Of a stretch of DNA of 64,000 nt, positions 18,326-35,721 are shown one piece after another. Source of the stretch: a virus; IMG/VR virus record IMGVR_UViG_3300023110_000024, positions 12,602 to 76,601 of that record; one strand, given 5' to 3'. The position numbers were made by a program, and so were the translations under genes. Position 1 is the stretch's first letter. Each line of letters begins with the position of its first letter. The notes under the pieces are model-generated. The model saw only the letters and a list, made by a program, of their open reading frames with translations, made no database searches and was not told the DNA's origin.

Positions 18326-19501
18326 TTGCCCAGACTAAGTTTATACAAACCCGAACGTGGGAAAGATTATCAGTTTATTGACGATAGAATCTTTGAGATG
18401 TTTACTGTTGGTGGGACTGATGTAAATTTACATTTACTGTTAGGAACAACTAATCCAACAGATGAGGATGCTACTGCTACAACACCTCAATATGATGAAA
18501 TGAGTGTAACAAATATTCAAGACTTATTATTTTTAGAAAATAGAGATAGAAAGTATGAAGAAAATATTTATACCATTCGTGGGATTTATAATTTACAAGA
18601 TTTAGAATTCAACTTATCCCAGTTTGGTATGTTCCTAAGTAACGACATGCTGTTTCTAACTATTCATATGAATAGTACAGTAAAAACATTGGGTAGAAAA
18701 ATTGTTATAGGTGATGTTGTAGAACTTCCACATTTGCGAGATGAGTATGCGCTAAATGATTTTCAATATGCTCTTAAAAACTTTTATGTAGTTGAGGATA
18801 TTACACGCCCAGCAGAAGGATATTCGCCAACTTGGTTTCCGCATTTATATAGACTAAAGCTGAAACAAATAGCAGCAGGGCAAGAATTTAAAGATATTGA
18901 TGCTGACTCTACTAGAGAAAAAGAACTTGCTATCAACGAAGCTATTGTACAAGATGCTGAAGCAAATGCATTACTGAGTGGTTATGAGACTCAACATTTC
19001 TTTACATTACAAGTTAATGCTAACGGAGAGCCTGAACTCGTTAGAGCTGATACAACGATGATTGATGCCAGTACACACAAATTAAGTGGATCTATTGATC
19101 ATGTTATGAGAAATCCAGTAAAAGAAGGATACATGGGTTACTTGTTAGGAGACGGAATCCCACCAAATGGATTGCCTTTTGGGTGTGGTATATCATTTCC
19201 ACCTACAGGTATTGACGGTGATTATTGGTTACGAACAGATATGATTCCTAATAGACTGTTTAGATATGATGGAAAACGTTGGATGAAATTTGAGGATAAT
19301 GTGAGAATGACATTGACACCACGTGAAGATAGATATACACAAAAAGGTACATTTATCAATAACACAAATTCTACAGAAATTTGTGGCGAGGATATTCCAG
19401 AACGGCAAAGTTTGAGTAAGGCATTACGCCCTAAAATAGATATGCCACATTTAGATAACCCTGAGGAATGCGATAGTAATACACCAGGGAGGCGCAAATA
19501 A
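18326..19501 (+). CDS. gp14: Neck protein (gp14-like head closure)
   Basis: DLLFLENRDRKY, FNLSQFGMFL and GDVVELPHL motifs; located between gp13 and gp15. Confidence 0.75.
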   Translation: MPRLSLYKPERGKDYQFIDDRIFEMFTVGGTDVNLHLLLGTTNPTDEDATATTPQYDEMSVTNIQDLLFLENRDRKYEENIYTIRGIYNLQDLEFNLSQFGMFLSNDMLFLTIHMNSTVKTLGRKIVIGDVVELPHLRDEYALNDFQYALKNFYVVEDITRPAEGYSPTWFPHLYRLKLKQIAAGQEFKDIDADSTREKELAINEAIVQDAEANALLSGYETQHFFTLQVNANGEPELVRADTTMIDASTHKLSGSIDHVMRNPVKEGYMGYLLGDGIPPNGLPFGCGISFPPTGIDGDYWLRTDMIPNRLFRYDGKRWMKFEDNVRMTLTPREDRYTQKGTFINNTNSTEICGEDIPERQSLSKALRPKIDMPHLDNPEECDSNTPGRRK

Positions 19502-20995: not shown

Positions 20996-21427
20996 ATGAA
21001 AAAAGTTATCTGTAGCGGGGCATTATTTTATGCTCTATCATCTAATAGATTCTTATTTTTACATCGAGCTCGCAGTAAGCATTCTGATACATGGGGGCTT
21101 GTGGGAGGTGTAAATGAGGAAAAAGAAACTCCTTGGAATGCTCTTGAGCGAGAAATTGTAGAAGAAATATCACCTACTGAAATCAAAAAAACTATTCCTT
21201 TAGAAACTTATGTAAGTAATGATAACTTTTTTACTTTTCATACATATCTTTGTTTAGTTGAAAAAGAATTTATTCCTGTGCTAAATGAAGAACATGATGG
21301 ATATGCTTGGGTAAGTTATAAGAAGTGGCCTCGACCATTACATCAAGGCCTAAAAAATACTCTAAATAATCGTATCAATCAAGTTAAATTAGATACTGTG
21401 ATGAATCTAATCAATCTTATTAGTTGA
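20996..21427 (+). CDS. NUDIX hydrolase
   Basis: Nudix box GGVNEEKETPWNALEREIVEE; LNEEHDGYAW. Confidence 0.88.
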   Translation: MKKVICSGALFYALSSNRFLFLHRARSKHSDTWGLVGGVNEEKETPWNALEREIVEEISPTEIKKTIPLETYVSNDNFFTFHTYLCLVEKEFIPVLNEEHDGYAWVSYKKWPRPLHQGLKNTLNNRINQVKLDTVMNLINLIS

Positions 21428-22487
21428 AGGTGTAAGTTACATCAGTACCAGATTCTTCTCTAACAATACGTGGATCTGGATTTCCTGTATCAACCATATT
21501 TCCATTTTGTGTTAGTGTACCTAAAAAGTCAATACTTCCTGTTACATATAAATCATCTACAACATATGTCATACCACTAGCTGAGTCTAACTCTAGGTTT
21601 CCAGTAGTTGTGTCAATAGTATTGCCATCAACTATACCAATTTGAAGATTACCAAATGTAAAACCTGCCGCTGAACTACTACTCCAAGTATGCATTCCTG
21701 CTCCATCAGTGTGTAACAGTTGTCCAGAAGTTCCTTCCATAATATTAAAATCTGCTAGTGTTTGTGGTGGTGTTACAAATGATACTGTACCGCTGCCATT
21801 AGTTGTTAGCACTTGTCCAGTAGTTCCGTCTGTAGTTGGGAATGTATAGTTACCATTAAAATTAACACTGCCCATAACTGTTACAGTACCGCCTACTGAA
21901 CTTACTGTTAAGTTTCCTGAGAGTGTGTTTATGTTATTTGTTGTGGTTGCAAGACTATATACATTTCCCCAGGTATTAGTTGTTGCTCCTAAACTGTAAA
22001 CAGCACTAATAATAGGTGCAATTGAGCCTGTAATATTTACATTTCCTGATGCAGTTATATTACCAGATGCAGAGTCGAGAATCAAAGTACCCGAAGTTGT
22101 GTCAATCTTTAGGTCGGAATCAACACCAATTCTAATATTACCAAAGGTTCGTGTTGGATCTGCAAAGGACACGGTGCCTGAGCCATCTGTTTTTAATATC
22201 TGCCCAGCAGTTCCATCAGCTCCAGGAAGTTCATAGGAACTGTTGATTTTATATCCTGTTGTGATGAGATCGGCTGCTAATACAACATTCCCAGTAGCTC
22301 CTAATACTAAATCTCCTGAGGAGGTATCAATAGTGTTGTCAGTTGTTACGCCTACTTGAATATTATCTACAGTTTGTTCGCCTGTAGTTTCAGCAATAAC
22401 ATTCCATACAGTGCCATTATATTCCCAAGTAGTTCCGCCTTCTGAATATTGTTGCCCACTTGAGGGCGATGCGGGAAAACTAATCAT
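21420..22487 (-). CDS. Fibre protein with motif A at the N-terminus and a REE motif at the C-terminus
   Basis: G/T/S-rich; PxxDGTxGQxLxTDGxG repeats and three NIxxGxxxxxxIDTxxGxLxL repeats. Confidence 0.75.
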   Translation of the reverse strand: MISFPASPSSGQQYSEGGTTWEYNGTVWNVIAETTGEQTVDNIQVGVTTDNTIDTSSGDLVLGATGNVVLAADLITTGYKINSSYELPGADGTAGQILKTDGSGTVSFADPTRTFGNIRIGVDSDLKIDTTSGTLILDSASGNITASGNVNITGSIAPIISAVYSLGATTNTWGNVYSLATTTNNINTLSGNLTVSSVGGTVTVMGSVNFNGNYTFPTTDGTTGQVLTTNGSGTVSFVTPPQTLADFNIMEGTSGQLLHTDGAGMHTWSSSSAAGFTFGNLQIGIVDGNTIDTTTGNLELDSASGMTYVVDDLYVTGSIDFLGTLTQNGNMVDTGNPDPRIVREESGTDVTYTFN

Positions 22488-22514
22488 AGTTTGCTCCTTC
22501 CTTTACAATATTTA

Positions 22515-23252
22515 TCAGTCTAGGATTTTATTTTTGAGGTGATGTTCTACTACTTCGTTAGGACAGTTGATGTATAAGGCTTCCATCTCATCTAGCCAAT
22601 TGAGTAAGTGTCTAATAGTAGGTGCTTTTCCTGCCTCAAATAATTCCTCAACAGTTTGAATATATTCTAAACAGTGCCGTCTTGCTACTAGTGGATGGAT
22701 TCCGCTCCATTCTAAACTCTCTTGGATTCCTCTAGGAATAGTTCCTGTGGCTTGGAATTCCTCAATAGCTCTCCTAAATGCTCCGCGGATTTTTTCACGC
22801 TTATCATTCTCACGAACCATCTCGGGTGGAATTTCATCTGGAAGATTAAAGTTTTTTCGTAGTGCATCAATTTGATCTTGATAGCTTTGTAATTCTTCCA
22901 TTGCGTTACGAATAGCAGTTCTAGAACTTTCAAGTCCTGCTTCAAGTTCCTCTGCTTTTAGTTGTGCCATAGGATCATTGATTTTCATACGATATTGTTC
23001 TATTCGTAATTCATTTTTCTTATGTCTAAACCAAGTTTCTCGTAAAGCGTTCAAACGGTTTTGTTGTTGCATGGCGCATTGTTGTAACCATACAAGAGGT
23101 GTTTGTCCTGAATATTGTAAATCAGCAATAGTTGTTTCTGCGTTTTTAGAAACAATAAGTTCATCAATTTGTTTTTGTACTATAGGCAGGGTTGCTTCAA
23201 GTTTTACAGCGATATCATTTGGTACTTGTCTAATATCAATTTCTGTTGTCAT
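22515..23252 (-). CDS. Coiled-coil protein in the Kelch/fibre cassette
   Basis: All-helical heptad pattern, unlike its beta-rich neighbours. Confidence 0.6.
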   Translation of the reverse strand: MTTEIDIRQVPNDIAVKLEATLPIVQKQIDELIVSKNAETTIADLQYSGQTPLVWLQQCAMQQQNRLNALRETWFRHKKNELRIEQYRMKINDPMAQLKAEELEAGLESSRTAIRNAMEELQSYQDQIDALRKNFNLPDEIPPEMVRENDKREKIRGAFRRAIEEFQATGTIPRGIQESLEWSGIHPLVARRHCLEYIQTVEELFEAGKAPTIRHLLNWLDEMEALYINCPNEVVEHHLKNKILD

Positions 23253-23263
23253 AATCCTCTATA

Positions 23264-24295
23264 TTATATGCCAGAGCTCACAGCTCCTTCAGTTGAGTTG
23301 CTCGCTAGACTGTTACTTGTAGTTATTATTTCTATCATATCCTCGTGACGAATATGGTTTATTCTGCTTATAGCGTCACCGTCACCTATCAAATCATGTC
23401 CGCCAGCGCCCATAATAACATCGCCATTGGAGCAGGTTTGAACTTCCTTTGTGGCTGTTGCTAGTGTTATTGATAAAGTAAGAACATAATCGTCATATCT
23501 TAATTTTCTAATTTGATTCCAATTAGCACTATAATCTGGTTCTTCCCCGCCAACTAGCACAATACAATTTCCTCCAGATGCTCCGTTAACATCGTTTCGT
23601 GCTGTTAAATATGAATCCATAGAGGATACAAATATAGAAGTAGAGGATGATCCTGCCATACGATATTTTTCATATGATGCTGTGGCAGCTCCTGCTATAA
23701 TTCCATCTCTTGCTTCGTCACTCCAACCTTGGCAAACAAAAGCATCTTCTCCATTGCCTGCTACAGTATGATGCCATCGTGCTACTGTAAAACTTGGATA
23801 AGTTGTTGCTGCTGCCGAGTCATCATTTCTTAGTCTGTCTGGAGCGTTTATTACGGTGAACATTCCCGATCCCGCATTTCTACCACCAAAGAAATATTGT
23901 TCTGTAGCGGTTCCAGTTCCCATCAGTCCAGTTCGTGCTGAGGTTAGATTATTATTTGTAATAGTTACTGATGCTTCTGATGAGATTTGAAACTTTTCTA
24001 CTGCTTGTCTGTATCCACCAGATCCTCTACCCTGTGCTACATATATATTTGTTCCATCAGATGTTGAGCAGTGATGTCTTCTATCTTCAACCATAGTAGT
24101 TGTTGATGTTGTAACTACCACACTATCATCAAATCTTATTTTTTGTAATGAATCTGTTTGAGAGCCTGGTATTGACGGACGCCCGCCATTGTATATAGCA
24201 ACATCAGCACACCCGTGCCCGTCAATTATAACTGCATCAGCTAAATCAGATGTTGTAATATCAAAAAATCCATCGGCAAATATAATGGCTGCCAT
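23264..24295 (-). CDS. Kelch-like beta-propeller protein (pair 1, second gene); start revised to 24295
   Basis: Repeated GG...(K/R)xR(F/Y)DD blades; ATG overlaps the upstream stop (TAATG) and GGAGG lies upstream. Confidence 0.7.
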   Translation of the reverse strand: MAAIIFADGFFDITTSDLADAVIIDGHGCADVAIYNGGRPSIPGSQTDSLQKIRFDDSVVVTTSTTTMVEDRRHHCSTSDGTNIYVAQGRGSGGYRQAVEKFQISSEASVTITNNNLTSARTGLMGTGTATEQYFFGGRNAGSGMFTVINAPDRLRNDDSAAATTYPSFTVARWHHTVAGNGEDAFVCQGWSDEARDGIIAGAATASYEKYRMAGSSSTSIFVSSMDSYLTARNDVNGASGGNCIVLVGGEEPDYSANWNQIRKLRYDDYVLTLSITLATATKEVQTCSNGDVIMGAGGHDLIGDGDAISRINHIRHEDMIEIITTSNSLASNSTEGAVSSGI

Positions 24296-25503
24296 TAGCT
24301 TATTCCTCCACCACAAGCGGCTTGTTTTGCTTCTTGTAGTCTTGTAGAAAGTATTTGACAGGCGGCGCTATCATCAAATTTCATTTTTTGTATAACATCG
24401 TTTCCTATTCCGCTCTGAGAACCAGCAGAAGTCCAACCATTAGATACATACGCACTTCCGTCAGCATAATCTCCTGCGCTTACATGGCCGGCTGCTCTAG
24501 TAGAGGTTCTATATGTTAGAACTGTGGAAGTAGTTGGATCATCATATTTGAATTTCCAAAAGGACCATGTAGAATAACTCACAACATCGCCATTATATTC
24601 TAGCATAGTTCCATTAGTGATAGCATTATAATTGGCTGTTGTTACTGCAGCAGCATCATCCGCATATCTGTGTTTCTCTCCAGATATTCCAGTTATGGAA
24701 TTACTCATTCCTGGAACTCTACCACCTACTCTTAAGTAATCATATTCCTGTCCTACGGTGCTAGCTCTATAATATGTTTGTGACATTGGGTTTGCTGCAA
24801 CTGCAACAACATTAGGGTCATCCCATCGATATTTGTCTATATCAGTTTGATAGAGATATCCTCCACTGCCACCAATAAAATCAAATTTTTCCATTGCTAC
24901 ATTATGAATATCAGTATAATTAGATACTAAATTTCCTGTTGCAGAGCTTTCGATGCCGCTGGTAGTCGTAGCACCATATCCAACTTTCCAATTGGTTCTA
25001 TTAAATGATCCAGACCAATTTGCGGTTCCGTTTGTACGAAAAGCAGCAACATCATAATTTCTTGTAACTGAGGCGGTAGTAGTAAATGCATTATCTTCAG
25101 CAGGAATAGTACCAACTTTATGAGCCAAATCATCGAATTTGACTTGATCTATATGATCAAGATAATTTGGGATTGGAGTTCCATCTTCATCAAAGCCCAA
25201 GGGTTCTCCTCTTCCTCCCATTACTATTATAGAAATATTTCTTGGATATAGCTGGTGGATATAAGGAAGATTGAGATATTTTAAGGCGCTTATATAAACT
25301 AATTTATTTGTAGTTGGGCATTTTACTGCGTCTAATACTGCATTAACTGGTTTGCCTTGGGTAATGTCTTGTCCTGCAACTTGAACAGGTCCTCGATTCA
25401 TATATGTCGTAAAGTCAGACGAGTTTGCGATTCTTGATAATTGTATTGTTGTTGGGTAAGTTTCTTTTGATTTTACACTAAAAAATCTAAATGTCGTTGC
25501 CAT
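24295..25503 (-). CDS. Kelch-like beta-propeller protein (pair 1, first gene)
   Basis: KFDD, RWDD and KYDD blade motifs with GG doublets. Confidence 0.65.
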   Translation of the reverse strand: MATTFRFFSVKSKETYPTTIQLSRIANSSDFTTYMNRGPVQVAGQDITQGKPVNAVLDAVKCPTTNKLVYISALKYLNLPYIHQLYPRNISIIVMGGRGEPLGFDEDGTPIPNYLDHIDQVKFDDLAHKVGTIPAEDNAFTTTASVTRNYDVAAFRTNGTANWSGSFNRTNWKVGYGATTTSGIESSATGNLVSNYTDIHNVAMEKFDFIGGSGGYLYQTDIDKYRWDDPNVVAVAANPMSQTYYRASTVGQEYDYLRVGGRVPGMSNSITGISGEKHRYADDAAAVTTANYNAITNGTMLEYNGDVVSYSTWSFWKFKYDDPTTSTVLTYRTSTRAAGHVSAGDYADGSAYVSNGWTSAGSQSGIGNDVIQKMKFDDSAACQILSTRLQEAKQAACGGGIS

Positions 25504-25540
25504 TAGCTCTCTTTAAATATTATAGTGTATTTATGCAGAA

Positions 25541-25566
25541 ATGTCAAGCTCCAAAGAGCTTGACAT
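25541..25566 (-). terminator. Perfect 11-bp hairpin after a fibre gene
   Basis: atgtcaagctc-caaa-gagcttgacat, followed on the - strand by a new TAAATA at 25528-25533. Confidence 0.65.
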
Positions 25567-25576
25567 ATATGGATTA

Positions 25577-27268
25577 TTATAGAGGCTGGATCCAGTTTCC
25601 TACGCCTGTGCCGGAATCTACGACCCAAATATAAAGAATACCTGAGTTGCGATCCAACCACATCATGCCCTCATCTGGAGAGGCAGGTGCTGCGGTATCA
25701 ACTGTACAAGCTCCGCCAACTTTTACGCCATCAACATACAAGTCGTTTCCTTGTACTGTCAATGGAATATTTACTGCTGGAGTTGCAGGATCAACCATGT
25801 GAATGGTTTGAGCATAAATGTTAGTCCAGCGAAGAGCTGCTCCGCCCAAGTCCCATGTCAAATCAGCGTTTGGGTTGATAGTATCGGCAGCTACACCAGC
25901 AAGTGAGCTTGCGCCAATTACACCAAGTGTTCCGCCAACTGTTGCGCCGTTTGTCACAGCCAATGTATCACCAGCAGTTACCGCACCAGTTACAGCCAAA
26001 GTTGAACTCAATGTTGCTGCGCCTGTTACATTCAATGCATCACTAAGTGTAGCCACTCCAGTTACGTCCAAAGTTGATGACATTGTAGCTGCGCCAGTTA
26101 CGCCCAAAGTTGAGCTTAGTGTAGTTGCTCCAGATACAGTGGTAGCTCCGTTGATACTAACGTTGCCACTATTTGAACTTAAAACCAAATCACCAGTAAT
26201 TGTGTCAATAGTTTGATCATCTGTTACAGCAATTTGGATATTACCAAAGTTAGTGCTTGGAACTGTCAAGTTGTTAACTGTAATGGAGTCAAAATAACCA
26301 TGGTTCCACATCGTCAATTCATGGCCCAAGTCGTATGTTTTGTCTGCTGATGGCATAACATGACCTGAAAAGTCAGCGCCACCAAATGCTACGTTGCCCA
26401 GTGTTCCTGAGAAAACTTCGCCTGTGTTAGTTGCGTCTGGCATAAAGGTAAATTTCTGAACTGAGCGATCAAAGCCAAAGAAACCAACCTTTGCTGCTGT
26501 GCCGTCGTGCCATTGGTACTCAATACCGCGATCCAATCCGTCGTTTGTAGTAGGAGCAGTGTCGCCACCCAGTGTCATAACGGGATCATCAAGTGTTACA
26601 GTAGTTGAATTTACTGTAGTTGTAGTTCCATTTACAGTCAAGTCACCTGTAATAGTTACATTACCAAGTGTGCTTGTTCCACCAGTTGTGGAGCCTGTAA
26701 TCAAAATGTTACCAGCAATAGTTACATCACCGCCATCACCACTTGGGGAAGGATCAATAACAATAGCATTGGTTGCTGAACTAATAGTGTTGTTTGAGCC
26801 ATCAATTGTCAAATCACCAAGAACTACTTTGCTACCATAAATGTTATTCCAAACATTAGAAGCAGTACCTAAATCGTATGTAGCAGTAGCCAATGGAGTA
26901 ATAGTGTTTGAGGAAACAACGCCATTCAATGTAGTAGCGTCTGTAACAGCCAAAGAATTACCAAGTGCTGTAGCGCCAGTTACAGTGAATGTTCCACCAA
27001 CAGAAGCGTCAGTTGTAAATGTTGAAATACCTGTAACATCTAATGTGCCAGTTACAGCCAAGTTGTCATCAACTTGTGTATTACCAGTTGCAGAGTCTAA
27101 GATCAAGTCTAAAGTCTTAGTGTCAATCTCGTTGTCTGCTGTAATTGAGAGTTGAACATCACCGAAGGATGGTTGAACATTCCATACAGTACCGTCCCAT
27201 TCCCAAGTAGTCGCGCCGTAGGTATATAACTGTCCTACAGTAGTTGCGCTCGGAAAAGCAAAAGCCAT
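25577..27268 (-). CDS. Tail fibre protein (motif A N-terminus, motif B C-terminus)
   Basis: GATTLSSTLGVT-type 12-aa repeats; TTTTVNSTTVTLDDP...DRGIEYQWHDG domain. Confidence 0.8.
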   Translation of the reverse strand: MAFAFPSATTVGQLYTYGATTWEWDGTVWNVQPSFGDVQLSITADNEIDTKTLDLILDSATGNTQVDDNLAVTGTLDVTGISTFTTDASVGGTFTVTGATALGNSLAVTDATTLNGVVSSNTITPLATATYDLGTASNVWNNIYGSKVVLGDLTIDGSNNTISSATNAIVIDPSPSGDGGDVTIAGNILITGSTTGGTSTLGNVTITGDLTVNGTTTTVNSTTVTLDDPVMTLGGDTAPTTNDGLDRGIEYQWHDGTAAKVGFFGFDRSVQKFTFMPDATNTGEVFSGTLGNVAFGGADFSGHVMPSADKTYDLGHELTMWNHGYFDSITVNNLTVPSTNFGNIQIAVTDDQTIDTITGDLVLSSNSGNVSINGATTVSGATTLSSTLGVTGAATMSSTLDVTGVATLSDALNVTGAATLSSTLAVTGAVTAGDTLAVTNGATVGGTLGVIGASSLAGVAADTINPNADLTWDLGGAALRWTNIYAQTIHMVDPATPAVNIPLTVQGNDLYVDGVKVGGACTVDTAAPASPDEGMMWLDRNSGILYIWVVDSGTGVGNWIQPL

Positions 27269-27313
27269 ATCTTATCTCCTTTAAAAATCAGTAGCTTTAT
27301 ATATTTAGCAATA

Positions 27314-27544
27314 TTACATTATTCTTGGTTGCACCCAAGTATCTTGTGTTCTAAAATACAGTTTGCCATTTTCTGTATTCAACCACCTATTCGCTTCAAT
27401 TACATCCTCAGGTTCAGTATCTTGAGCAAAAATAGTCTTTTTATTTTTTGTAACCCACTGTCCACCATTCCAAGCCCAAGTTCGTCCTTCGTGCTCAAAT
27501 AGTTCTCCTACAGTAGTTCCAGTGGGAAAAGCAAATGCTGCCAT
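27314..27544 (-). CDS. Small A+B adaptor-like virion protein
   Basis: 76 aa made almost entirely of motif A (FP..G...TW.WNG.W) and motif B (P...W..TENGKLY...WVQ). Confidence 0.75.
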   Translation of the reverse strand: MAAFAFPTGTTVGELFEHEGRTWAWNGGQWVTKNKKTIFAQDTEPEDVIEANRWLNTENGKLYFRTQDTWVQPRIM

Positions 27545-27557
27545 TTAAGTCTCCTTA

Positions 27558-27803
27558 TTATGTTGGCTGATAGGCAGAGCCCATTTGTACCCATGCCCCT
27601 GAAGTGTCATAGAAATACATTCTGCCGTTTTCTGTGTTAAACCAATAGTTACCTGTTATTGGTGTTGGAGTTGTTGGGAGAGTATCTTGTACATACACTT
27701 CGTCACTGTATAATCGGTCCCAAGCAGTTCCATTATACTCCCAAGTGTTATCTCCTTCAGTATATAAGTTGCCTGCAGAGCCTGCAGGAAATGTAAGTGC
27801 CAT
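27558..27803 (-). CDS. Small A+B adaptor-like virion protein
   Basis: 81 aa with the same two motifs; has AGGAG and TATAAATA upstream. Confidence 0.75.
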   Translation of the reverse strand: MALTFPAGSAGNLYTEGDNTWEYNGTAWDRLYSDEVYVQDTLPTTPTPITGNYWFNTENGRMYFYDTSGAWVQMGSAYQPT

Positions 27804-27824
27804 TCATATTCTCCTTTATAATAT

Positions 27825-29999
27825 TTATACAGTTGTCCAAGGTTTAGCCATAGCTTCCGCTGGTGGTAATGCACCAGGACTAGATGATCCCAGCCATTCA
27901 GCATTAAATCCAGCAGGATTAGTGCCTATGTGTGTTGGTTGGATTATAGTGGCTGGATTTGACAATAAGGATATATGTTCTCCATCATCAGCTACGCCAA
28001 CAAAAAACAGTCTTGAATTAGCAGCAGCTATTGATTCATACTGTCCAAGATATCCTGGAAATCCTGGTATTTGTACTTCATTAGTATCTGGATTCATACC
28101 CATTATAGCCCAACAAGGATATACAAATGAATTATCAGGGAAGGATCTTGCATAAATCAACATACCATAATAGGATATGCCTGCTCTTAAATTAGGTACA
28201 GTTGTTGATCCATTCTCATTAACAAATTGATTAGTATCCGAATCCCAACTTGTAGTTATTGTTCGAGGAATATTTTGGGAAGCTCCTATATTAACAGCCC
28301 CTAGATTGTTTAGTCTTACCCGCATGAGTCTTGCTATTGTTGTTGTATTAGCATCTGATCCTGTTGAATATCCAACAAATGGGAATGTCTGCTCTGTCGT
28401 ATTTTCTACATTGAGGGTAGTCATATTATCTGTTGAGACTGTACTATAAAACGAATCTATTCCTGCTATAATATTGGGTTCAAAAACATAAGCAGCTCCT
28501 GAGTCAGTTTGGGCATCACTAGATTCTTCACCGTATGCCCCGGCGATAGCATATGATTCACATATAGCTACTTGCTCCGCAAATCTATCTGTTCTTCCTG
28601 TGCTTTGTAAATTAGGATTGTCTACTGTATCAAGTAACTTTCCTGTTGCTGGATCAAAGACGTATGCTTTGCCAGAGTAGAGATCCGACGAAGTATGATT
28701 CTCATTAGGAGCACCAACTATAGCATACGATTCACATATATCAACACCATAACCAAACTGATCACTTGCTGTTGTAGTAAGAGCATTTGGATTGTCTAGT
28801 GTATGAAGTAGAGCACCTGTTGCTGGGTTGTAAATGTATGCTTTACCAGACCATAATCCTGTACCACCACCTGGGTTACTTGATCCATCATCTTCTCCAT
28901 GTGCACCAACTATAGCATACGATTCACATATAGCAACAGCATAACCAAATAGATCATTATCAGCTACGTCAAATACATTTGGATTGTCTAGTGTATAAAG
29001 TAAATTTCCTGTTGATGTGTCGTAAATATATGCTCTACCAGAGTTGGCTCCTCCTTGATCTTCATATGGTGCGCCAACTATAGCATACGATTCACATATA
29101 TCAACCCGGTATCCAAACCTAGGGGTAGTACCACCAGAGGTTGGATTGTCTAGTGTATAAAGTAAATTTCCTGTTGATGTGTTGTAAATATATACTTTAC
29201 CAGAGTCGGCTACTGCTCCTTCATCTGCATGAGGAGCACCAACTATAGTATATGAATCAGAAATAGCAAGACCCCAGCCAAATCTAGCAGTGGTTTCTGG
29301 ATTTGGGTTATTTAATGTACGAAGTAAATTTCCGGTTGATGTGTCGTAAATATATACCTTGCCAGAAGCAGTTCCGCCAGTATCACTTTCTCCATATGCA
29401 CCAATTACGGCATAAGATTCAGATATATCAACACAATAACCAAAAAAATCATCTGCTGATGTGCCATCAACATTAGGGTTGTCTAGTGTATAAAGTAAAT
29501 TTCCTGTTGATGTGTCGTAAATATATGCTTTACCAGATTTATTTCCGCCAGCATCCTCTTCCCAATATGCTCCAACTATAAAGTATGAATCAGTGATACC
29601 AACACCCCAGCCAAATCGATCACTAAGTGCATCACCATAAACATTAGGATTTTCTTTTGAGTATTTTAGGTGCAGGCTTATTGATTCTCTCCATGTCATT
29701 GGTCGCCCAATAGGATTGACTCCCCAAGCATTTTTTGCGACAGCTTTATCAGTTTCAGCTGATGCAGTCGTAAATACTGACCCTTCGTTAATCCATTGCC
29801 CATCTAAATATGTATAAAGCCTGCCATTATCAGTATCAGTCCAATGTTGGCCCTCAACTGCTACTGTTGGAGCATCAGCTTGAAAGTAAGTTTTTGACGG
29901 GTCTAAATATTCCCATCCAGTTCCGTTATACACCCAGGTTGAAGTTCCATCTGTATATGTTTGCCCTACAGTGGTTGCTTCTGGGAATGCTATTGCCAT
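27825..29999 (-). CDS. FG-GAP (integrin-alpha-like) beta-propeller protein with A+B N-terminus
   Basis: Seven FG...AIVGA(P/Y/H)..D...SGKAYIYD repeats, several nearly identical at the DNA level. Confidence 0.85.
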   Translation of the reverse strand: MAIAFPEATTVGQTYTDGTSTWVYNGTGWEYLDPSKTYFQADAPTVAVEGQHWTDTDNGRLYTYLDGQWINEGSVFTTASAETDKAVAKNAWGVNPIGRPMTWRESISLHLKYSKENPNVYGDALSDRFGWGVGITDSYFIVGAYWEEDAGGNKSGKAYIYDTSTGNLLYTLDNPNVDGTSADDFFGYCVDISESYAVIGAYGESDTGGTASGKVYIYDTSTGNLLRTLNNPNPETTARFGWGLAISDSYTIVGAPHADEGAVADSGKVYIYNTSTGNLLYTLDNPTSGGTTPRFGYRVDICESYAIVGAPYEDQGGANSGRAYIYDTSTGNLLYTLDNPNVFDVADNDLFGYAVAICESYAIVGAHGEDDGSSNPGGGTGLWSGKAYIYNPATGALLHTLDNPNALTTTASDQFGYGVDICESYAIVGAPNENHTSSDLYSGKAYVFDPATGKLLDTVDNPNLQSTGRTDRFAEQVAICESYAIAGAYGEESSDAQTDSGAAYVFEPNIIAGIDSFYSTVSTDNMTTLNVENTTEQTFPFVGYSTGSDANTTTIARLMRVRLNNLGAVNIGASQNIPRTITTSWDSDTNQFVNENGSTTVPNLRAGISYYGMLIYARSFPDNSFVYPCWAIMGMNPDTNEVQIPGFPGYLGQYESIAAANSRLFFVGVADDGEHISLLSNPATIIQPTHIGTNPAGFNAEWLGSSSPGALPPAEAMAKPWTTV

Positions 30000-30009
30000 T
30001 TATTTCTCC

Positions 30010-30246
30010 TTATATTGAAACAGCCGTTTTTGCTTGTATCCAAGCTCCGCCCATATAAAAATACAATTTGCCTGTATTCATATCATACCAAGTATTGCCG
30101 TCGATTGGATTTGCAGGTGCTGTAGCAGAGGCAAATAATTGATCCGCACTTACCGTTGCCCAACCAGTTCCATTCCACTTCCAAGTAGTTCCTCCTTCAG
30201 TATAAAGTTCACCAACTGTTGTACCTTGTGGAAATGATATTGGCAT
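30010..30246 (-). CDS. Small A+B adaptor-like virion protein; start revised to 30246
   Basis: MPISFPQGTTVG matches the paralog starts; AAGGA upstream; TATAAATA at 30264-30271 lies inside the longer ORF call. Confidence 0.75.
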   Translation of the reverse strand: MPISFPQGTTVGELYTEGGTTWKWNGTGWATVSADQLFASATAPANPIDGNTWYDMNTGKLYFYMGGAWIQAKTAVSI

Positions 30247-30288
30247 AAATGTTTCCTTTATGTTATTTATAGCATTCAACCTATTGTA

Positions 30289-31317
30289 TTAAGTTGTAGC
30301 TTTTTCTAATTCTTCGACTCTTTTGGTTAATTCTTTTACGGCTTGAAGAAGTATTGTAGTCATTCTAGCATAATCTACAGTCAAATAATCTTGTCCAGAA
30401 AGACTCTCGCCATGTGCGCCTTCATCCATTTCAGATAATCTTACAAGTTCAGGAAATTGTTTTTGCACTTGTTGGGCACTCATACCATATTCTTCGCCTC
30501 TATTTTTTACACCTAGCGATTCAGCTAGTGCGTTAGGCGTATATTTGAATGTGGTTAGTTTTGATATTTTATCTAATACTTTGCCTAAATTGCCTGTTCT
30601 TGTTTTCAATCTGTCGTCTGAGGTTGTTGGGGGGACCATTGAAGTAGCTAATCCATGTGACATAGAATAGCCTGGCTGGATCCAAGATCCGCCTGCGTAA
30701 ATATAGAGTCTAGCATTGTTTGTGCTAAACCACATATCACCTTCAACCATTGTAGCTGGAGGTGTGTTGCCTACATGAGTTGCGTTATTGTCAATTTGAA
30801 CTCCATTGACATACAAGTTGCCTTTTATATTTACATTGCCTGTAGCACTTGTAACAGTTAAATCTCCTACGGCTGTATCTAATTGGTTTGGATTTGTAAC
30901 CCCTAATTGTACATCGCCGCCAATAACACCTTTACTTACAAAAGCATTTCCGTTTATGTAAGCATTATTCATTGCTGTGATATCTTGTGCTACAGAAACA
31001 TAACCTGCGTTAAAAGTTCCGTTATCACCAAACAAGTATTGTCTTGTTCCGTTATAGTGTAGAGCTAATTTTCCATTTACTGTTCCGTTAGCATCTAGTT
31101 GAAAGCTCCATTTGTGTGCATATGTTGATTCGGTGATACTTTGGACATACGATTGCGCTTCGCCTAAAACGTCAAAGTCAGTTTGAGGAGTTCCAGTTTT
31201 TACACCAATTCTTTGTTCTGAGACATCAAAGTATAAAAGATTATACTCAAATGCTAAGTCTTCACCATTACTTCTTGTAAGGTTACTTTTTAAATTTTCA
31301 CCTGCTACCTTTAACAT
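30289..31317 (-). CDS. Tail fibre with C-terminal peptidase S74 intramolecular chaperone
   Basis: SDDRLKT...GMSAQQVQKQFPELV...VDYARMTTILLQAVKEL...ELE. Confidence 0.85.
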   Translation of the reverse strand: MLKVAGENLKSNLTRSNGEDLAFEYNLLYFDVSEQRIGVKTGTPQTDFDVLGEAQSYVQSITESTYAHKWSFQLDANGTVNGKLALHYNGTRQYLFGDNGTFNAGYVSVAQDITAMNNAYINGNAFVSKGVIGGDVQLGVTNPNQLDTAVGDLTVTSATGNVNIKGNLYVNGVQIDNNATHVGNTPPATMVEGDMWFSTNNARLYIYAGGSWIQPGYSMSHGLATSMVPPTTSDDRLKTRTGNLGKVLDKISKLTTFKYTPNALAESLGVKNRGEEYGMSAQQVQKQFPELVRLSEMDEGAHGESLSGQDYLTVDYARMTTILLQAVKELTKRVEELEKATT

Positions 31318-32341: not shown

Positions 32342-33451
32342 TCAATAACCTTGGGCGCTCGCTAATCCATATTTTGATTCTGATAGTAAATTTGTATGTA
32401 TTGCGTGAGCACTATCATCAAATTTTACAGATTCAACTGTATCTGTTGTATCCCCTGAATGTAAATTTCCTCCTGCTATCAATAATCCATCAAAACCATT
32501 TGATTGTGCAGTAGCACTATGAACTGCTTGGGAATAGGTATTTACAAATACTGATGTAAAAACAGAATCATCAAATCTTGTTTTCTCAAATAGTGGAGAA
32601 TTAGTTGCACTATCACTATCACCAGTAAATATCATTTCAAATTCTGTTGATCCTCCAGATAATCTATTTCTAGGAACAGTTAAGGAATTAGATAGTGTAT
32701 AAGAGGGTACAACATCGTCATATCTAAATCTTTCTATGCTTGATAATTGCCCTGCAGAAGAGTTAACACCGCCAGCAAAACAAATTTGATTCCTATCTGA
32801 TCCTGCAGCACAATAATGTCTACCTACAGAAAGTCCGTTAGTCATAACTACCATAGCAGAATCATCAAATTTAACTTTATCAATTGCTGATACATCTGTT
32901 ACACCGCCACCAAATAGTGCTTCTCCAAAACTTGCAGCGCCTGCTAATCCTCTTTTATTTGTTGATAATCTATTGGTAAATTGAACTGCAGGTATGCTAT
33001 CATCAAATTTTAGCTTTTGAATTAAATCAGCAGCACCACTTCCTCCCCCAAATACAGCCTGTCTTCCATCTGATGTGCCTGCTAGATAGTGTTTTCCATT
33101 ATTCAAATCGTTTGTATGAACAATAGTTGGTATAATATCATCATACCTTAATCGCTCAACTGTGCTACGACGTCCAGTACCACCTCCGCCAAATCCGCCA
33201 CCAAACACAATTTCTGTGTAGGATCTTTTTACAATAGCTGGGTGTCCTGAAAAAAATAAATCTTTTAAATAAACTTTCTTTGTCATATCCGAAGTCATGT
33301 ATGCGTCAGCAATTACAACACGATCCTTTCCTGTAATTGAATCACCCGATGGAACTCCAACAACTAGTCCCAAGTCCATTGCATAATCGTCTTCGATTGC
33401 AAATTCATTCGTTGGGTTTTTTGTTTTTTCTAAATGCAACTTTACTGTCAT
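32342..33451 (-). CDS. Kelch-like beta-propeller protein (pair 2, first gene)
   Basis: About six F(G/A)GG...(R/K)(Y/F)DD...NxLS blades. Confidence 0.75.
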   Translation of the reverse strand: MTVKLHLEKTKNPTNEFAIEDDYAMDLGLVVGVPSGDSITGKDRVVIADAYMTSDMTKKVYLKDLFFSGHPAIVKRSYTEIVFGGGFGGGGTGRRSTVERLRYDDIIPTIVHTNDLNNGKHYLAGTSDGRQAVFGGGSGAADLIQKLKFDDSIPAVQFTNRLSTNKRGLAGAASFGEALFGGGVTDVSAIDKVKFDDSAMVVMTNGLSVGRHYCAAGSDRNQICFAGGVNSSAGQLSSIERFRYDDVVPSYTLSNSLTVPRNRLSGGSTEFEMIFTGDSDSATNSPLFEKTRFDDSVFTSVFVNTYSQAVHSATAQSNGFDGLLIAGGNLHSGDTTDTVESVKFDDSAHAIHTNLLSESKYGLASAQGY

Positions 33452-35721
33452 TAGTTAAACCTATAAATAACCTGAGTAGCCGTTTCTTCTCTAGATATTC
33501 TTTGTGATGTTGCTAAATCATACATATCTTTTATAACAAATTCATTATTAGCAAAGTCCCATTGTAATATCTCTCCATTGATTGCTTCTGAAGATTCACT
33601 TGGTACTGTCAAACTAAATCCTGCTTGAAATTCATAAGAGCTAGTAGCAGCATTATAAGTTAGGATATCTCCATCGGTTGTAGTTCCAGATACATCATTT
33701 AAATCAGCAATACTAGCGGCAGCTATTCTAGCATCAGCTTGAGCATCTGTATATCCTGTTGCTGTGCCTGGTACCCATGCTGAAGTTCCAGAATCATATA
33801 CTAGTGCTTGTCCATCACTTGGAGTTCCTATGGTTGTATCTGTTAAGTCTGCTAAAGTAGTTGATCCACCACCTCCGCTTGAAACAGTAGCTGGAATCCA
33901 TTTATTAGAAGAACCATCCCATGTAAGAACATCGCCAGTATTCGGTGATCCTGCATCTACATTGTTAAGATCATCCAATACTTTCTTTTGTGGAACCCAA
34001 GTATATCCTGTTCCTGCACCATTTACAATCATCTGATTTCCAGCAGTAAGTGAACCTGGTGCATTTACATTACCAATATCTGTAAGAAGTGCTACGGTGG
34101 TACCACCACCACTAGATACAGTTGTAAATGAAAAAGTACCTGCGCCATCAGTTGTTAATACTTGTCCAGCAGCACCGTCTATAATAGATAAATCAGTCAA
34201 TACAGTAGGAATGACAGGAGGAGTATAGGTAAAGACACCTGTTGAATTGTCATATGCCAATGTTCCTGTACCAGATGCGCTATTTTGGGTTACAGATAAA
34301 TTAGTTAGTGCAATACCTCCGTTGCCTGGTATCCATTTTGAAGTACCAGAATCATATACTAGTGCTTGTCCGTCACTTGGTGATCCTGCATCTATGTCAT
34401 TAAGATCGACTAATAGTTTCTTTTGTGGAACCCAAACATAACCTGTTCCTGAAGAGTGTACTACTAGTTGATTTCCAGCATTAGTTGATCCTGCAATAGC
34501 TACATCGCCAATATCTGTAAGAGACGCTACGCTAGTCAAATAATTAGAGTCATTTGTAAAGGTGCTAACATTTGTAGGAATGCGAGCATCAACTCTAGCA
34601 TCTGTATAATAAAGATTTGTAGATCCTTCAGTTAGATTATCTGTTGTTTTGGTATTGAATCTAGAATCAAACCTTCCGTTAGTGTAATATAAATTAGAAG
34701 TATGTTCAGTTACATTTGAAGTATCTAATGTGACAACGCCTGTTTTTCCAGCAACGGATGTAACTAAATTAGTATCATCTAATAAAGCTGACAAATCCAT
34801 TGTAAAAGTAGTTCCATCGTCTCTAGTAAATGTAACAATGCCTGTGCCTGAGTCTAATGTTCCTGAGGCTATTGAGCGAGAATCTTCATCTAATAATCCT
34901 GACAAATCTATGTTAGTAGTATTTCCGTTTTCATCACTATATGATAAAGTAGTTGTGCCTGCAGTGTATGAAAGTGCTGTTGGTTCTTTTGATCCTGGTA
35001 TCCATTTATTAGTAGAGTTATCCCATTGTAAAAATTGTCCATCTGTTGGTGATCCTGCATTTACGTTATTAAGATCATCTAATACTTTCTTTTGTGGGAC
35101 CCAAGTATATCCATCTCCTGTTCCATTTACTACCATCATATTTCCAGCGGTAGTTGATCCAGGAACATTTACATTGCCAATATCTGTAAGGATTGCTGCG
35201 CTAATTCTTCCATCAGCTCTAGCATCTGTATAATAAAGATTTGATGAGCCTTCAGCTACATCGTCAGTTGATTTAGTAGCGAGTCTTGTATCAAAATCTG
35301 TATTGGTCCTTGCTGTAGTATAATACAGATTTGTTGAACCTTCGGATACATTGTCAGTTGTTTTAGTGGTAAGCCTTGCGTCAAAATCTGTGTTAGCTCT
35401 AGCTGTTGTATAATAAAGATTTGTTGTTCCTTCTGCTAGATCATCTGTTGATCCTATAGCAGAGCCTGAAGTGATAGGAACCCATTTGCTAGTTGCGCCA
35501 TCAAAACTTAAAAGTTGATTATTAGTAGGCGCAGTAGAAAAATCTACATCAGCCAAACCTTCGATGGTTCCGGATGCTACTGTCTTGATATTATTTAATG
35601 TATCTTTTACAAAAATTTTGCCATCGGCTAAGTTTAAGGCTACTTCGCCTGTTTGTAACGAAGATGGAGCAGGGACTGCTCCAGGAGTTGAAGAAGATTT
35701 TAGTTTTATTACGGTTGCCAT
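33451..35721 (-). CDS. Long tail fibre protein
   Basis: N-terminal IKLKSS...GEVALNLADGKIF attachment motif; TDDLxEGxTNLYYT and LxDLxDV...DGQxLxWD...KW repeats; C-terminal REE motif. Confidence 0.85.
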   Translation of the reverse strand: MATVIKLKSSSTPGAVPAPSSLQTGEVALNLADGKIFVKDTLNNIKTVASGTIEGLADVDFSTAPTNNQLLSFDGATSKWVPITSGSAIGSTDDLAEGTTNLYYTTARANTDFDARLTTKTTDNVSEGSTNLYYTTARTNTDFDTRLATKSTDDVAEGSSNLYYTDARADGRISAAILTDIGNVNVPGSTTAGNMMVVNGTGDGYTWVPQKKVLDDLNNVNAGSPTDGQFLQWDNSTNKWIPGSKEPTALSYTAGTTTLSYSDENGNTTNIDLSGLLDEDSRSIASGTLDSGTGIVTFTRDDGTTFTMDLSALLDDTNLVTSVAGKTGVVTLDTSNVTEHTSNLYYTNGRFDSRFNTKTTDNLTEGSTNLYYTDARVDARIPTNVSTFTNDSNYLTSVASLTDIGDVAIAGSTNAGNQLVVHSSGTGYVWVPQKKLLVDLNDIDAGSPSDGQALVYDSGTSKWIPGNGGIALTNLSVTQNSASGTGTLAYDNSTGVFTYTPPVIPTVLTDLSIIDGAAGQVLTTDGAGTFSFTTVSSGGGTTVALLTDIGNVNAPGSLTAGNQMIVNGAGTGYTWVPQKKVLDDLNNVDAGSPNTGDVLTWDGSSNKWIPATVSSGGGGSTTLADLTDTTIGTPSDGQALVYDSGTSAWVPGTATGYTDAQADARIAAASIADLNDVSGTTTDGDILTYNAATSSYEFQAGFSLTVPSESSEAINGEILQWDFANNEFVIKDMYDLATSQRISREETATQVIYRFN

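What the first reader, a model, noticed from the sequence alone, without database searches (positions are those of the whole stretch)
21420..31317. Plug-and-socket grammar in the fibre block: candidate modular, chain-assembled adhesin system
Seen: motif A (FP....G..Y..G..TW.(W/Y)(N/D)G..W) occurs strictly at the N-terminus of six proteins (starts 22487, 27268, 27544, 27803, 29999, 30246). Motif B (P....G..W..T.(N/T)G(R/K)LY....W(I/V)Q) occurs in six proteins, always downstream of A or near the C-terminus. Three ~80-aa genes are essentially A+B only. The first gene of the run (30289..31317) has B only, just before its S74 autocleavage site, so B would lie at the mature C-terminal end. The last gene (21420..22487) has A only. 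Inference: A of one protein docks on B of another, so the small genes act as extenders or branch adaptors that string different binding tips (FG-GAP, Kelch) onto one fibre, allowing combinatorial host recognition.
Basis: partly seen in the sequence, partly recalled or inferred. Interest (0 to 1): 0.78.

Follow-up and report, generated by a model that had tools for sequence, protein, structure and literature searches.

The report
Cap-and-knob connector code in phage fibres
A marine T4-like phage has six fibre genes that start with the same short "cap" and six copies of a related "knob". In many other phages, including cultured cyanophages, caps and knobs occur together, in a fixed gene order and often in equal numbers. 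They are therefore probably the connectors that join separate fibre proteins into one chained or branched host-recognition fibre, although no binding has been shown.

Summary
Motif A sits at residues 1-32 of six minus-strand genes. Motif B occurs six times. Three genes of 76-81 aa are A+B only. The first gene has B only, about 16 residues before its S74 domain, and the last has A only.

- **Against it:** A and B are not different parts. They are homologous variants of one ~38-aa beta-meander bead (hhalign E 4e-6 to 5e-9). B is a common fibre bead (4132 cluster representatives at E<=0.001; up to 18 detected copies per protein; often flanked by collagen repeats). It is usually internal, not C-terminal.
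- **For it:** A lies at the N-terminus in 82 of 82 deduplicated genes. A B-only gene lies immediately upstream of an A gene 16 times and downstream once. All nine complete or near-complete genomes tested that have A also have B. Counts are equal in 29 of 39 independent loci (6:6 here, 4:4 in P-SSM2). Ten of 11 loci chosen by B have an A gene downstream.
- The mini-genes are under purifying selection.

Docking itself is untested. The scan noted the same cap/knob idea earlier on other DNA (e1-6019756). The closest known kind is the anchor-branch receptor-binding system.

The parts
30289..31317 (-). p342: first gene of the run. Fibre protein with one B knob and a C-terminal S74 intramolecular chaperone. 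No A.
   Evidence: PHROG tail-fibre families match down to E 1.9e-17.
30670..30780 (-). B unit of p342 (residues ~180-216), about 16 residues before the S74 domain.
   Evidence: iE 1.9e-16.
30439..30621 (-). Peptidase_S74 chaperone domain of p342 (residues 233-293).
   Evidence: PF13884, E 2.7e-8, 34.4 bits against a cut-off of 22.
30010..30246 (-). p78: mini-protein with A (30142-30246) and B (30025-30135) only.
   Evidence: AF2 model: pLDDT 83.8, two three-stranded meanders.
27825..29999 (-). p724: A (29895-29999), B (29778-29891), then FG-GAP beta-propeller repeats and a C-terminal domain.
   Evidence: FG-GAP_2, E 3.9e-58.
27558..27803 (-). p81: mini-protein with A (27699-27803) and B (27576-27698) only.
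   Evidence: dN/dS 0.12 against the L009 orthologue.
27314..27544 (-). p76: mini-protein with A (27440-27544) and B (27323-27433) only.
   Evidence: dN/dS 0.045 against the L009 orthologue. The 90% cluster is seen on 36 contigs.
25577..27268 (-). p563: fibre segment with A at the N-terminus (27164-27268) and B as its last 41 residues (25583-25705).
   Evidence: The same layout is kept in L009.
22515..25503 (-). Three intervening genes without A or B: two Kelch-like repeat proteins (24295-25503 and 23264-24316) and a helical 245-aa protein (22515-23252).
   Evidence: The same order is found in L009.
21420..22487 (-). p355: last gene of the run. A cap only (22383-22487), shaft repeats and a conserved C-terminal tip.
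   Evidence: The L009 orthologue is 130 aa and keeps the cap and the tip.
19196..19288 (+). Weak B-like unit near the C-terminus of the virion structural protein encoded at 18326-19501.
   Evidence: iE 1.7e-4. It is not found with profile A3 at E<=0.05.

Best explanation
**What the motifs are.** A and B are two variants of one ~38-residue beta-meander 'bead' used by very many phage fibre proteins. B is the general bead or 'knob'. It is probably a node of trimeric fibres. It occurs singly or in tandem: after N-terminal anchors, between collagen stretches, or at C-termini. A is a specialised version that exists almost only as the extreme N-terminus of a protein. It has a fixed 4-5-residue lead before Phe-Pro, and its initiator Met is probably removed.

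**Proposed mechanism (inferred, not shown).** An A-capped protein attaches to the virion by docking its cap on a B knob of another fibre protein. Usually that is the protein encoded just upstream.

**What this would mean in this phage.** The block would encode one multi-protein fibre, assembled roughly in gene order:
1. p342 is the base. It has its own N-terminal attachment region, and its knob is exposed near the new C-terminus after the S74 chaperone is cut off.
2. p78, p81 and p76 are connectors without payload.
3. p724 is a connector that carries an FG-GAP propeller.
4. p563 is a long shaft segment.
5. p355 is the cap-only distal tip.

**Shown:** the motifs, their homology, the predicted bead fold, and the genomic regularities. 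**Inferred:** trimeric state, docking, assembly order, and a role in host recognition.
For: **Homology of A and B**
- hhalign probability 96%, E 4.7e-9.
- With strictly N-terminal A units only: probability 87%, E 4.1e-6 over 30 columns.

**Fold**
- Each unit is predicted as a small beta-meander with pLDDT 80-90.
- In two independent models the best structural analogues are trimerisation elements: the C-terminal 40 residues of CBA120 TSP3 (Z 3.0-4.5, rmsd 1.7-2.1), the collagen XV/XVIII trimerisation domains (Z 3.4-4.5), and the Mtd N-terminus.
- B directly flanks collagen Gly-X-Y repeats in P0023, P0016, L025 and L055.

**Cap**
- A lies at the N-terminus in 82 of 82 deduplicated genes.
- The F of FP is at residue 5-6 in 70 of 82. 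Residue 2 is small in 78 of 82.

**Linkage to B**
- A B-only gene is the immediate upstream neighbour of an A gene 16 times and the downstream neighbour once.
- All B-only genes precede the first A gene in 28 of 33 locus clusters.
- B is the only element shared by the otherwise unrelated upstream proteins.
- Three complete genomes hold exactly one A and one B, in neighbouring genes with the B gene upstream.
- Counts are 6:6 in this record, 4:4 in P-SSM2 and 1:1 in S-SCSM1.
- nA = nB in 29 of 39 locus clusters against a mean of 14 in permutations. In multi-copy loci it is 10 of 17 (P 0.001). Spearman rho is 0.85.
- Ten of 11 independent B-selected loci have an A gene downstream.

**Real genes and virion parts**
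- dN/dS is 0.045-0.12 for the mini-genes.
- In S-SCSM1 the A and B proteins are annotated as virion proteins.
Against: - No binding, co-folding or structure of an A:B pair was obtained. AlphaFold here is single-chain and returns no contacts.
- The A+3B model has pTM 0.36, so rigid bead-to-bead packing is not predicted for a monomer.
- B exceeds A in several genomes: S-N03 9:15, S-CRM01 4:10, DSL-LC01 2:5, L059 4:10. Many knobs therefore have no cap.
- In the domain maps, most of the 150 best cluster representatives carry B arrays without A.
- Only 25 of 74 A genes that have an upstream ORF have B in that immediate neighbour.
- Runs of A-only paralogues exist with few nearby B units (L041, L052).
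- An internal knob cannot be stacked end-on, so two docking geometries would be needed.
- Connectors made only of A+B could in principle polymerise on themselves.
- Fold matches are weak (Z <= 4.5).
- Equal counts arise partly from the common cis A-B architecture.
Confidence: 0.55

Rival explanations
1. There is no A-B contact. B is only a structural or trimerisation bead of fibre shafts. A is a generic N-terminal anchor or trimer cap that binds some other virion site (baseplate, neck or an adaptor protein). The co-occurrence and gene order reflect only the clustering and common descent of fibre genes built from the same bead.
For: - B is a very common internal tandem repeat, with up to 18 detected copies per protein and often without A.
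- B flanks collagen repeats like a registration node.
- Structural analogues such as the CBA120 TSP3 C-terminus and the collagen XV/XVIII domains trimerise without a docking partner.
- B exceeds A in several genomes.
- 53 of 77 complete A proteins lack B, and many have no B in the neighbouring gene.
- B-like units also occur in a virion structural protein next to the gp15-like tail-sheath stabiliser, and half-motifs occur in the large 1148-aa protein at 13027-16473.
Against: - The carriers range from a 47-kb genome with terminal repeats to a fragment that CheckV rates 21% complete. B is the only element shared by the upstream partner proteins.
- The polarity is 16:1.
- Single-copy A and single-copy B lie in neighbouring genes in three complete genomes.
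- Exact count matches such as 3 knobs on one protein followed by 3 cap-only genes (L023), 4:4, and 6:6.
- Ten of 11 B-selected loci have an A gene downstream.
- Simple clustering predicts neither the direction nor the equal numbers.
Confidence: 0.3
2. A and B together form one intramolecular two-meander domain. In proteins such as p563 the fibre is an insertion between the two halves, so the termini fold back on each other. The mini-proteins are then simply that domain alone.
For: - The AF2 model of p78 is fairly confident as a whole (pLDDT 83.8, pTM 0.57).
- A is followed by B at a nearly fixed distance (A1, B37-46) in many proteins.
Against: - 53 of 77 complete A proteins have no B, and many B proteins have no A. 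Each unit therefore folds without the other in cis.
- B-B-B arrays of any number occur.
- In the A+3B model the beads are individually confident but not rigidly packed (pTM 0.36).
- A 500-residue fibre would have to fold back on itself.
Confidence: 0.05
3. The three mini-proteins are not virion parts. They are assembly factors or competitors: they bind knobs or caps transiently during fibre folding, or cap unused knobs, and are then released.
For: - They are small and lie directly downstream of fibre genes, as tail-fibre assembly genes do.
- There are weak matches of B to phrog_3304, 'L-shaped tail fiber protein assembly' (E 6e-4 to 1.7e-3 for window proteins; 5.7e-10 for an L051 protein).
- Cap-only mini-proteins of 51-87 aa exist in other phages.
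Against: - They consist only of the same beads as the fibres.
- They keep both a cap and a terminal knob.
- They contribute to the 6:6 count match.
- No virion proteomics is available for this phage, so this rival is not excluded. It overlaps with the docking model.
Confidence: 0.1

Closest known systems
Anchor-branch receptor-binding systems (G7C gp66/gp63.1; K1-5; CBA120 TSP1-4; Klebsiella phages KP32, KP34, K11; PMC6872550, PMC13352976)
   Same: - A primary fibre or spike with its own virion anchor carries a docking module.
- Further receptor-binding proteins, encoded next to it, carry a short conserved N-terminal element and hang on that module.
- The number of docking sites relates to the number of secondary proteins.
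- The payloads are modular and exchangeable.
   Different: - In those systems the docking module is a T4 gp10-like domain, and the plug is a group-specific peptide unrelated to it.
- Here the candidate docking module is a ~38-aa bead. The plug is a homologue of that same bead. The pair is shared across very different phages.
- Connectors without payload (A+B only) and C-terminal knobs would allow serial chaining as well as branching.
- Binding is experimentally shown there and not here.
T4 long tail fibre (gp34-gp35-gp36-gp37), from textbook knowledge
   Same: Consecutively encoded fibre proteins are joined end to end into one long fibre. Small proteins (gp35, gp36) act as joints.
   Different: No sequence relationship was found, apart from S74-type matches of p342 to families named 'long tail fiber distal subunit'. 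T4 joints are not built from one repeated motif pair.
Small trimerisation nodes: collagen XV/XVIII NC1 trimerisation domain (3n3f, 9bnb), the C-terminal 40 residues of CBA120 TSP3 (5w6f), the Mtd N-terminal domain (1yu0)
   Same: These are the best structural matches to the B bead in two independent models. They are of similar size and also lie next to collagen or a fibre shaft.
   Different: The matches are weak (Z 3.0-4.5) and there is no significant sequence similarity. None is known as a docking site for a second protein.
   Same: It describes the same two elements (Trp-rich knobs and FPxxP caps) and makes the same claim that their numbers change together.
   Different: It concerns a different phage. 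Here there are in addition knobs at C-termini, three A+B mini-connectors, an S74-processed base protein and a 6:6 count. The co-variation was re-tested here on independent loci and on cultured phages.

Membership tests
Anchor-branch RBP systems (G7C / KP32 / CBA120 type) | Secondary RBPs carry a conserved N-terminal docking element. | tested here: met
   Six proteins share A at residues 1-32. A is N-terminal in 82 of 82 deduplicated genes elsewhere.
Anchor-branch RBP systems (G7C / KP32 / CBA120 type) | The primary RBP carries a T4 gp10-like branching domain. | tested here: inconclusive
   Pfam and PHROG scans of p342, p563, p724, p355 and neighbours named no gp10-like domain. No dedicated profile or fold comparison for gp10 domains 2 and 3 was run.
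Anchor-branch RBP systems (G7C / KP32 / CBA120 type) | Physical binding of the N-terminal element to the docking domain. | not testable with these tools
   Only single-chain structure prediction without contact output was available.
Peptidase_S74 intramolecular chaperone (PF13884) | C-terminal domain that matches the Pfam model above its cut-off. | tested here: met
   p342 residues 233-293: E 2.7e-8, 34.4 bits against a cut-off of 22.
Peptidase_S74 intramolecular chaperone (PF13884) | Autocleavage that releases the chaperone and leaves a new C-terminus. | not testable with these tools
   Inferred from knowledge of the family only. The Ser-Asp-Asp-Arg-Leu-Lys start of the domain is present.
FG-GAP_2 repeat (PF14312) | Repeats that match the Pfam model above its cut-off. 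| tested here: met
   p724: E 3.9e-58, 7 stretches.
Kelch repeat proteins | Match to a Kelch model above its cut-off. | tested here: inconclusive
   Only 23264-24316 hits PF24681, at 20.3 bits against a cut-off of 50. The three other similar genes have no hit.
DUF2793 (PF10983) | Match to the Pfam model above its cut-off. | tested here: not met
   No window protein matches. Relatives P0023 and P0146 reach 28-31 bits as summed scores, with no single stretch passing.
Collagen XV/XVIII-type trimerisation node | The same fold, forming a trimer. | tested here: inconclusive
   Top structural match, but Z is only 3.4-4.5. The oligomeric state was not tested.

The most novel reading that the evidence does not exclude
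A portable, near-universal 'cap-and-knob' connector code for phage fibres. One ~38-residue bead exists in a knob form (B) and an N-terminal cap form (A). Each knob takes one capped protein. Knob number and position (internal or C-terminal) would then set how many fibre proteins a virion carries, and whether they branch or chain. A+B mini-proteins would act as extenders or adaptors. The code would be readable from sequence in thousands of uncultured phages and in cultured cyanophages such as P-SSM2 and S-N03.
Probability: 0.45. Interest if true: 0.8.

Novelty: new variant of a known kind. Interest (0 to 1): 0.62.

Why it matters
How phages with many fibre genes mount them on the particle is known for only a few enterobacterial models, all of which use T4 gp10-like domains. 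If caps dock on knobs, the architecture of multi-fibre adsorption devices could be predicted from sequence for a very large and mostly marine or freshwater set of phages. That set includes the abundant cyanomyoviruses. The prediction would cover the number of receptor-binding proteins, which protein carries which, and whether they are chained or branched. It would also supply a small natural connector pair for phage or protein-assembly work in laboratory systems. Even if docking proves wrong, the work defines an unnamed and very common fibre bead together with its N-terminal variant. Pfam has no model for either.

Tried and rejected
**Searches that gave nothing useful**
- Megablast of the block against 50,697 phage records: no match.
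- Pfam has no family for A or B.
- PDB sequence searches with A+B, A, B and a 13-copy B protein: nothing significant. The best was phiKZ gp184 residues 74-92 at E 0.48. This is a monomeric beta wedge inside the capsid (PMC11297242), so it is only a generic resemblance.
- S-TIM5 was the best tblastn relative through the FG-GAP part. It has no A or B in the 33-kb stretch examined, and its small virion proteins are unrelated.
- The search for related loci with p342 found no relative.
- Alignments A2 and A3 were too diverse for the search for related loci.
- A literature search found no description of this motif pair in cyanophages.

**Readings rejected**
- The mini-ORFs are gene remnants: rejected by dN/dS of 0.045-0.12 and by their conserved order in L009.
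- A and B are unrelated motifs: rejected by profile comparison.
- B always lies near a C-terminus: rejected outside this phage, where only 10 of 90 copies do.
- Strict equality of counts as a rule: rejected. Several genomes have excess B.

**Limits and steps not taken**
- Single-chain AlphaFold could not test A:B contacts, because no contact output is given.
- I considered reading through the two stop codons between p76 and p563 to tether B to A for a fold.
Full report
**Context.** The window is part of a 76.6-kb IMG/VR viral contig that CheckV rates 21% complete. It carries a T4-type structural module: a gp15-like tail-sheath stabiliser (PF16724, E 1.6e-24) and many fibre-like genes. Its only named relatives among isolates are marine cyanomyoviruses, and they match only through the FG-GAP part. 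The finding covers a minus-strand run of genes. In transcription order these are p342, p78, p724, p81, p76, p563, two Kelch-like genes, a 245-aa gene, and p355.

**Observation.**
- A regular-expression scan of all six frames finds motif A only at the stated N-termini.
- Profile searches find exactly six A units (E 1e-14 to 1e-17) and six B units (E 5e-10 to 6e-18) in the window and in the whole record.
- p76, p81 and p78 are A+B and nothing else.
- p563 has A as its first 32 residues and B as its last 41.
- p724 has A and B followed by FG-GAP repeats (E 3.9e-58).
- p342 has B at residues ~180-216 and a Peptidase_S74 domain from residue 233. After the cleavage typical of that family, which is inferred here, B would lie about 16 residues from the new C-terminus.
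- p355 has A only.
- The 'Kelch' label rests on one sub-threshold hit.

**What A and B are.** They are the same kind of unit.
- Both follow the pattern P-x5-G-x2-aromatic ... aromatic-x-aromatic-x2-G-x-W, differing by a two-residue indel.
- Profiles built from 42 A and 400 B instances align with probability 96% and E 4.7e-9.
- Profiles built only from strictly N-terminal A units (28) and from B units (37) align with probability 87% and E 4.1e-6 over 30 columns.
- A profile search of 1.84 billion cluster representatives finds 4132 proteins at E<=0.001. In the best 150, B is a repeat with up to 18 detected copies per protein at a period of about 40-63 residues. A is nearly always at residue 1 and is followed by one or more B units. 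A few proteins carry internal units of intermediate type.
- B often abuts collagen Gly-X-Y runs.
- Pfam has no model for either unit.

**Fold.**
- AlphaFold2 predicts each unit as a short lead strand plus a three-stranded meander. For p78, mean pLDDT is 83.8 and pTM is 0.57. For a 197-aa A+3B protein the beads reach 80-90 but pTM is 0.36, meaning confident beads without a fixed mutual arrangement in a monomer.
- Both models give the same weak best matches: residues 583-623 of the CBA120 TSP3 tailspike (Z 3.0 and 4.5, rmsd 2.1 and 1.7), the collagen XV and XVIII trimerisation domains (Z 3.4-4.5), the Mtd N-terminus, and short fibre stubs on the phicrAss001 and P68 capsids.
- Against predicted viral structures, the matches with E<=0.001 are collagen-like, C1q-like and tail-fibre proteins.
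- With the collagen flanks, this points to a small node of trimeric fibres. The Z-scores are too low to prove it.

**Does the grammar generalise?**

*Loci selected by A.* I collected 63 viral loci through A and removed duplicates.
- A is N-terminal in all 82 deduplicated genes. The F of FP is at residue 5 or 6 in 70 of them. Residue 2 is small in 78, which by the usual rule implies Met removal.
- B ends within 6 residues of the stop in 10 of 90 copies, against 2.1 expected. Most copies are therefore internal.
- A clean chain grammar, [..B at C-end][A..B at C-end][A..], recurs in the L027 family (nine loci), in L040 and L050, in the close relative L009, and in the B-selected loci L090 and L091.
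- A B-only gene is the immediate upstream neighbour of an A gene 16 times and the downstream neighbour once. In 28 of 33 locus clusters every B-only gene precedes the first A gene.
- The upstream proteins share nothing except B. It often sits right after an N-terminal anchor of the 'MANTIKIKNSGT..GELA.N..DG' type.

*Whole genomes.*
- All nine complete or near-complete genomes with A also have B.
- Three of them (G003, G004, G013) have exactly one A and one B, in neighbouring genes.
- P-SSM2 has 4:4 and S-SCSM1 has 1:1, both annotated as virion proteins.

*Counts.*
- Over 39 independent locus clusters nA equals nB in 29, against a mean of 14 in permutations.
- Among multi-copy loci the figure is 10 of 17 (P 0.001). 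Spearman rho is 0.85.
- This record has 6:6.
- The rule is not strict. S-N03 (9:15), S-CRM01 (4:10), DSL-LC01 (2:5) and L059 (4:10) have excess B.

*Loci selected by B.* Ten of 11 independent clusters have an A gene downstream on the same strand.

The tests above are my own and agree with it.

**The mini-genes.** p81 and p76 are conserved in the relative L009, with dN/dS of 0.12 and 0.045 against 0.21 for p563. A family of 74-90-aa A+B proteins exists in metagenomes. They are real genes. In L009 the p355 orthologue is only 130 aa. It keeps the cap and the C-terminal tip and has lost the shaft repeats. The payload between conserved ends is therefore variable.

**Interpretation.** The most economical reading is a modular, multi-protein fibre in which N-terminal caps (A) dock on knobs (B) of other fibre proteins. 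C-terminal knobs would give end-to-end extension. Knobs placed after an anchor would give side branches. In this phage the gene order suggests p342 as base, then p78, p724 (carrying the FG-GAP propeller), p81, p76, p563 and p355 as tip. This order and the docking itself are inferences.

The main rival is that B is merely structural and that A binds elsewhere. It explains the B excess and the many B arrays. It does not explain the polarity, the single-copy neighbouring pairs in very different genomes, the count matches, or the reciprocal association.

An obligate intramolecular A:B domain is contradicted by the many A-only and B-only proteins.

**Comparison with known systems.** Functionally this resembles the anchor-branch receptor-binding systems (PMC6872550, PMC13352976) and the serial T4 long tail fibre. 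It differs in three ways: the docking candidate is a tiny bead, the plug is a homologue of that bead, and the pair is shared across very different phages. I therefore rate it a new variant of a known kind. It is of moderate to high interest and needs a direct binding test.

Noticed in passing
window 33451-35721 (-): The 756-aa fibre upstream of the block starts with an Mtd_N-like anchor (MATVIKLKSSS..GEVALN..DGKIF). It contains about ten shorter hairpin repeats of the type DGQxLxYDxxTxKWxPG, which by eye resemble the T4 foldon and the second half of A and B. It is not detected by the A or B profiles.
   Followed up: no
window 21420-22487 and 33451-35721; L009 5365-5757: p355 and the 756-aa fibre end in the same peptide (..REE.G/ATxVxYxFN). 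The L009 orthologue of p355 is 130 aa. It keeps the A cap (78% identity over the first 64 residues) and this tip, and lacks about 210 residues of shaft repeats.
   Followed up: partly
window 13027-16473 (-) and 18326-19501 (+): Half B motifs (..DGSYWFDTS, ..GDLWIDTS) occur in the 1148-aa protein. A weak full B-like unit (iE 1.7e-4) occurs near the C-terminus of the virion structural protein next to gp15. The gp15-like protein itself ends in similar Y-K-Y-D-G-x-x-W strings.
   Followed up: partly
window 25519-25547 (-): A perfect sigma-70 consensus (TTGACA, 17 nt, TATAAT; 12 of 12 matches) lies in the short gap between p563 and the first Kelch-like gene. It is the only perfect match in the 14.7 kb scanned.
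   Followed up: no
L074 (S-N03, NC_070959.1) and L075 (P-SSM2, NC_006883.2): Cultured cyanophages carry the same grammar. S-N03 gp015 has three knobs and no cap, and is followed by a run of cap-bearing genes including an 85-aa cap-only gene (gp010). In P-SSM2 the order is PSSM2_023 (B), 024 (A+B), 026 (A), 027 (B), 028 (A). These are ready experimental systems.
   Followed up: partly
L017, L066, L043, L023, L033, L058: Cap-only mini-proteins of 51-87 aa (A and little else) occur in several unrelated phages. In L023 one protein with three knobs is followed by three cap genes of 917, 660 and 69 aa.
   Followed up: no
L027 3399-4369: Two overlapping ORFs in different frames look like one A..B gene split by a frameshift. 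One carries A at its N-terminus and the other carries B at its C-terminus. The cause could be a sequencing error or a programmed shift.
   Followed up: no
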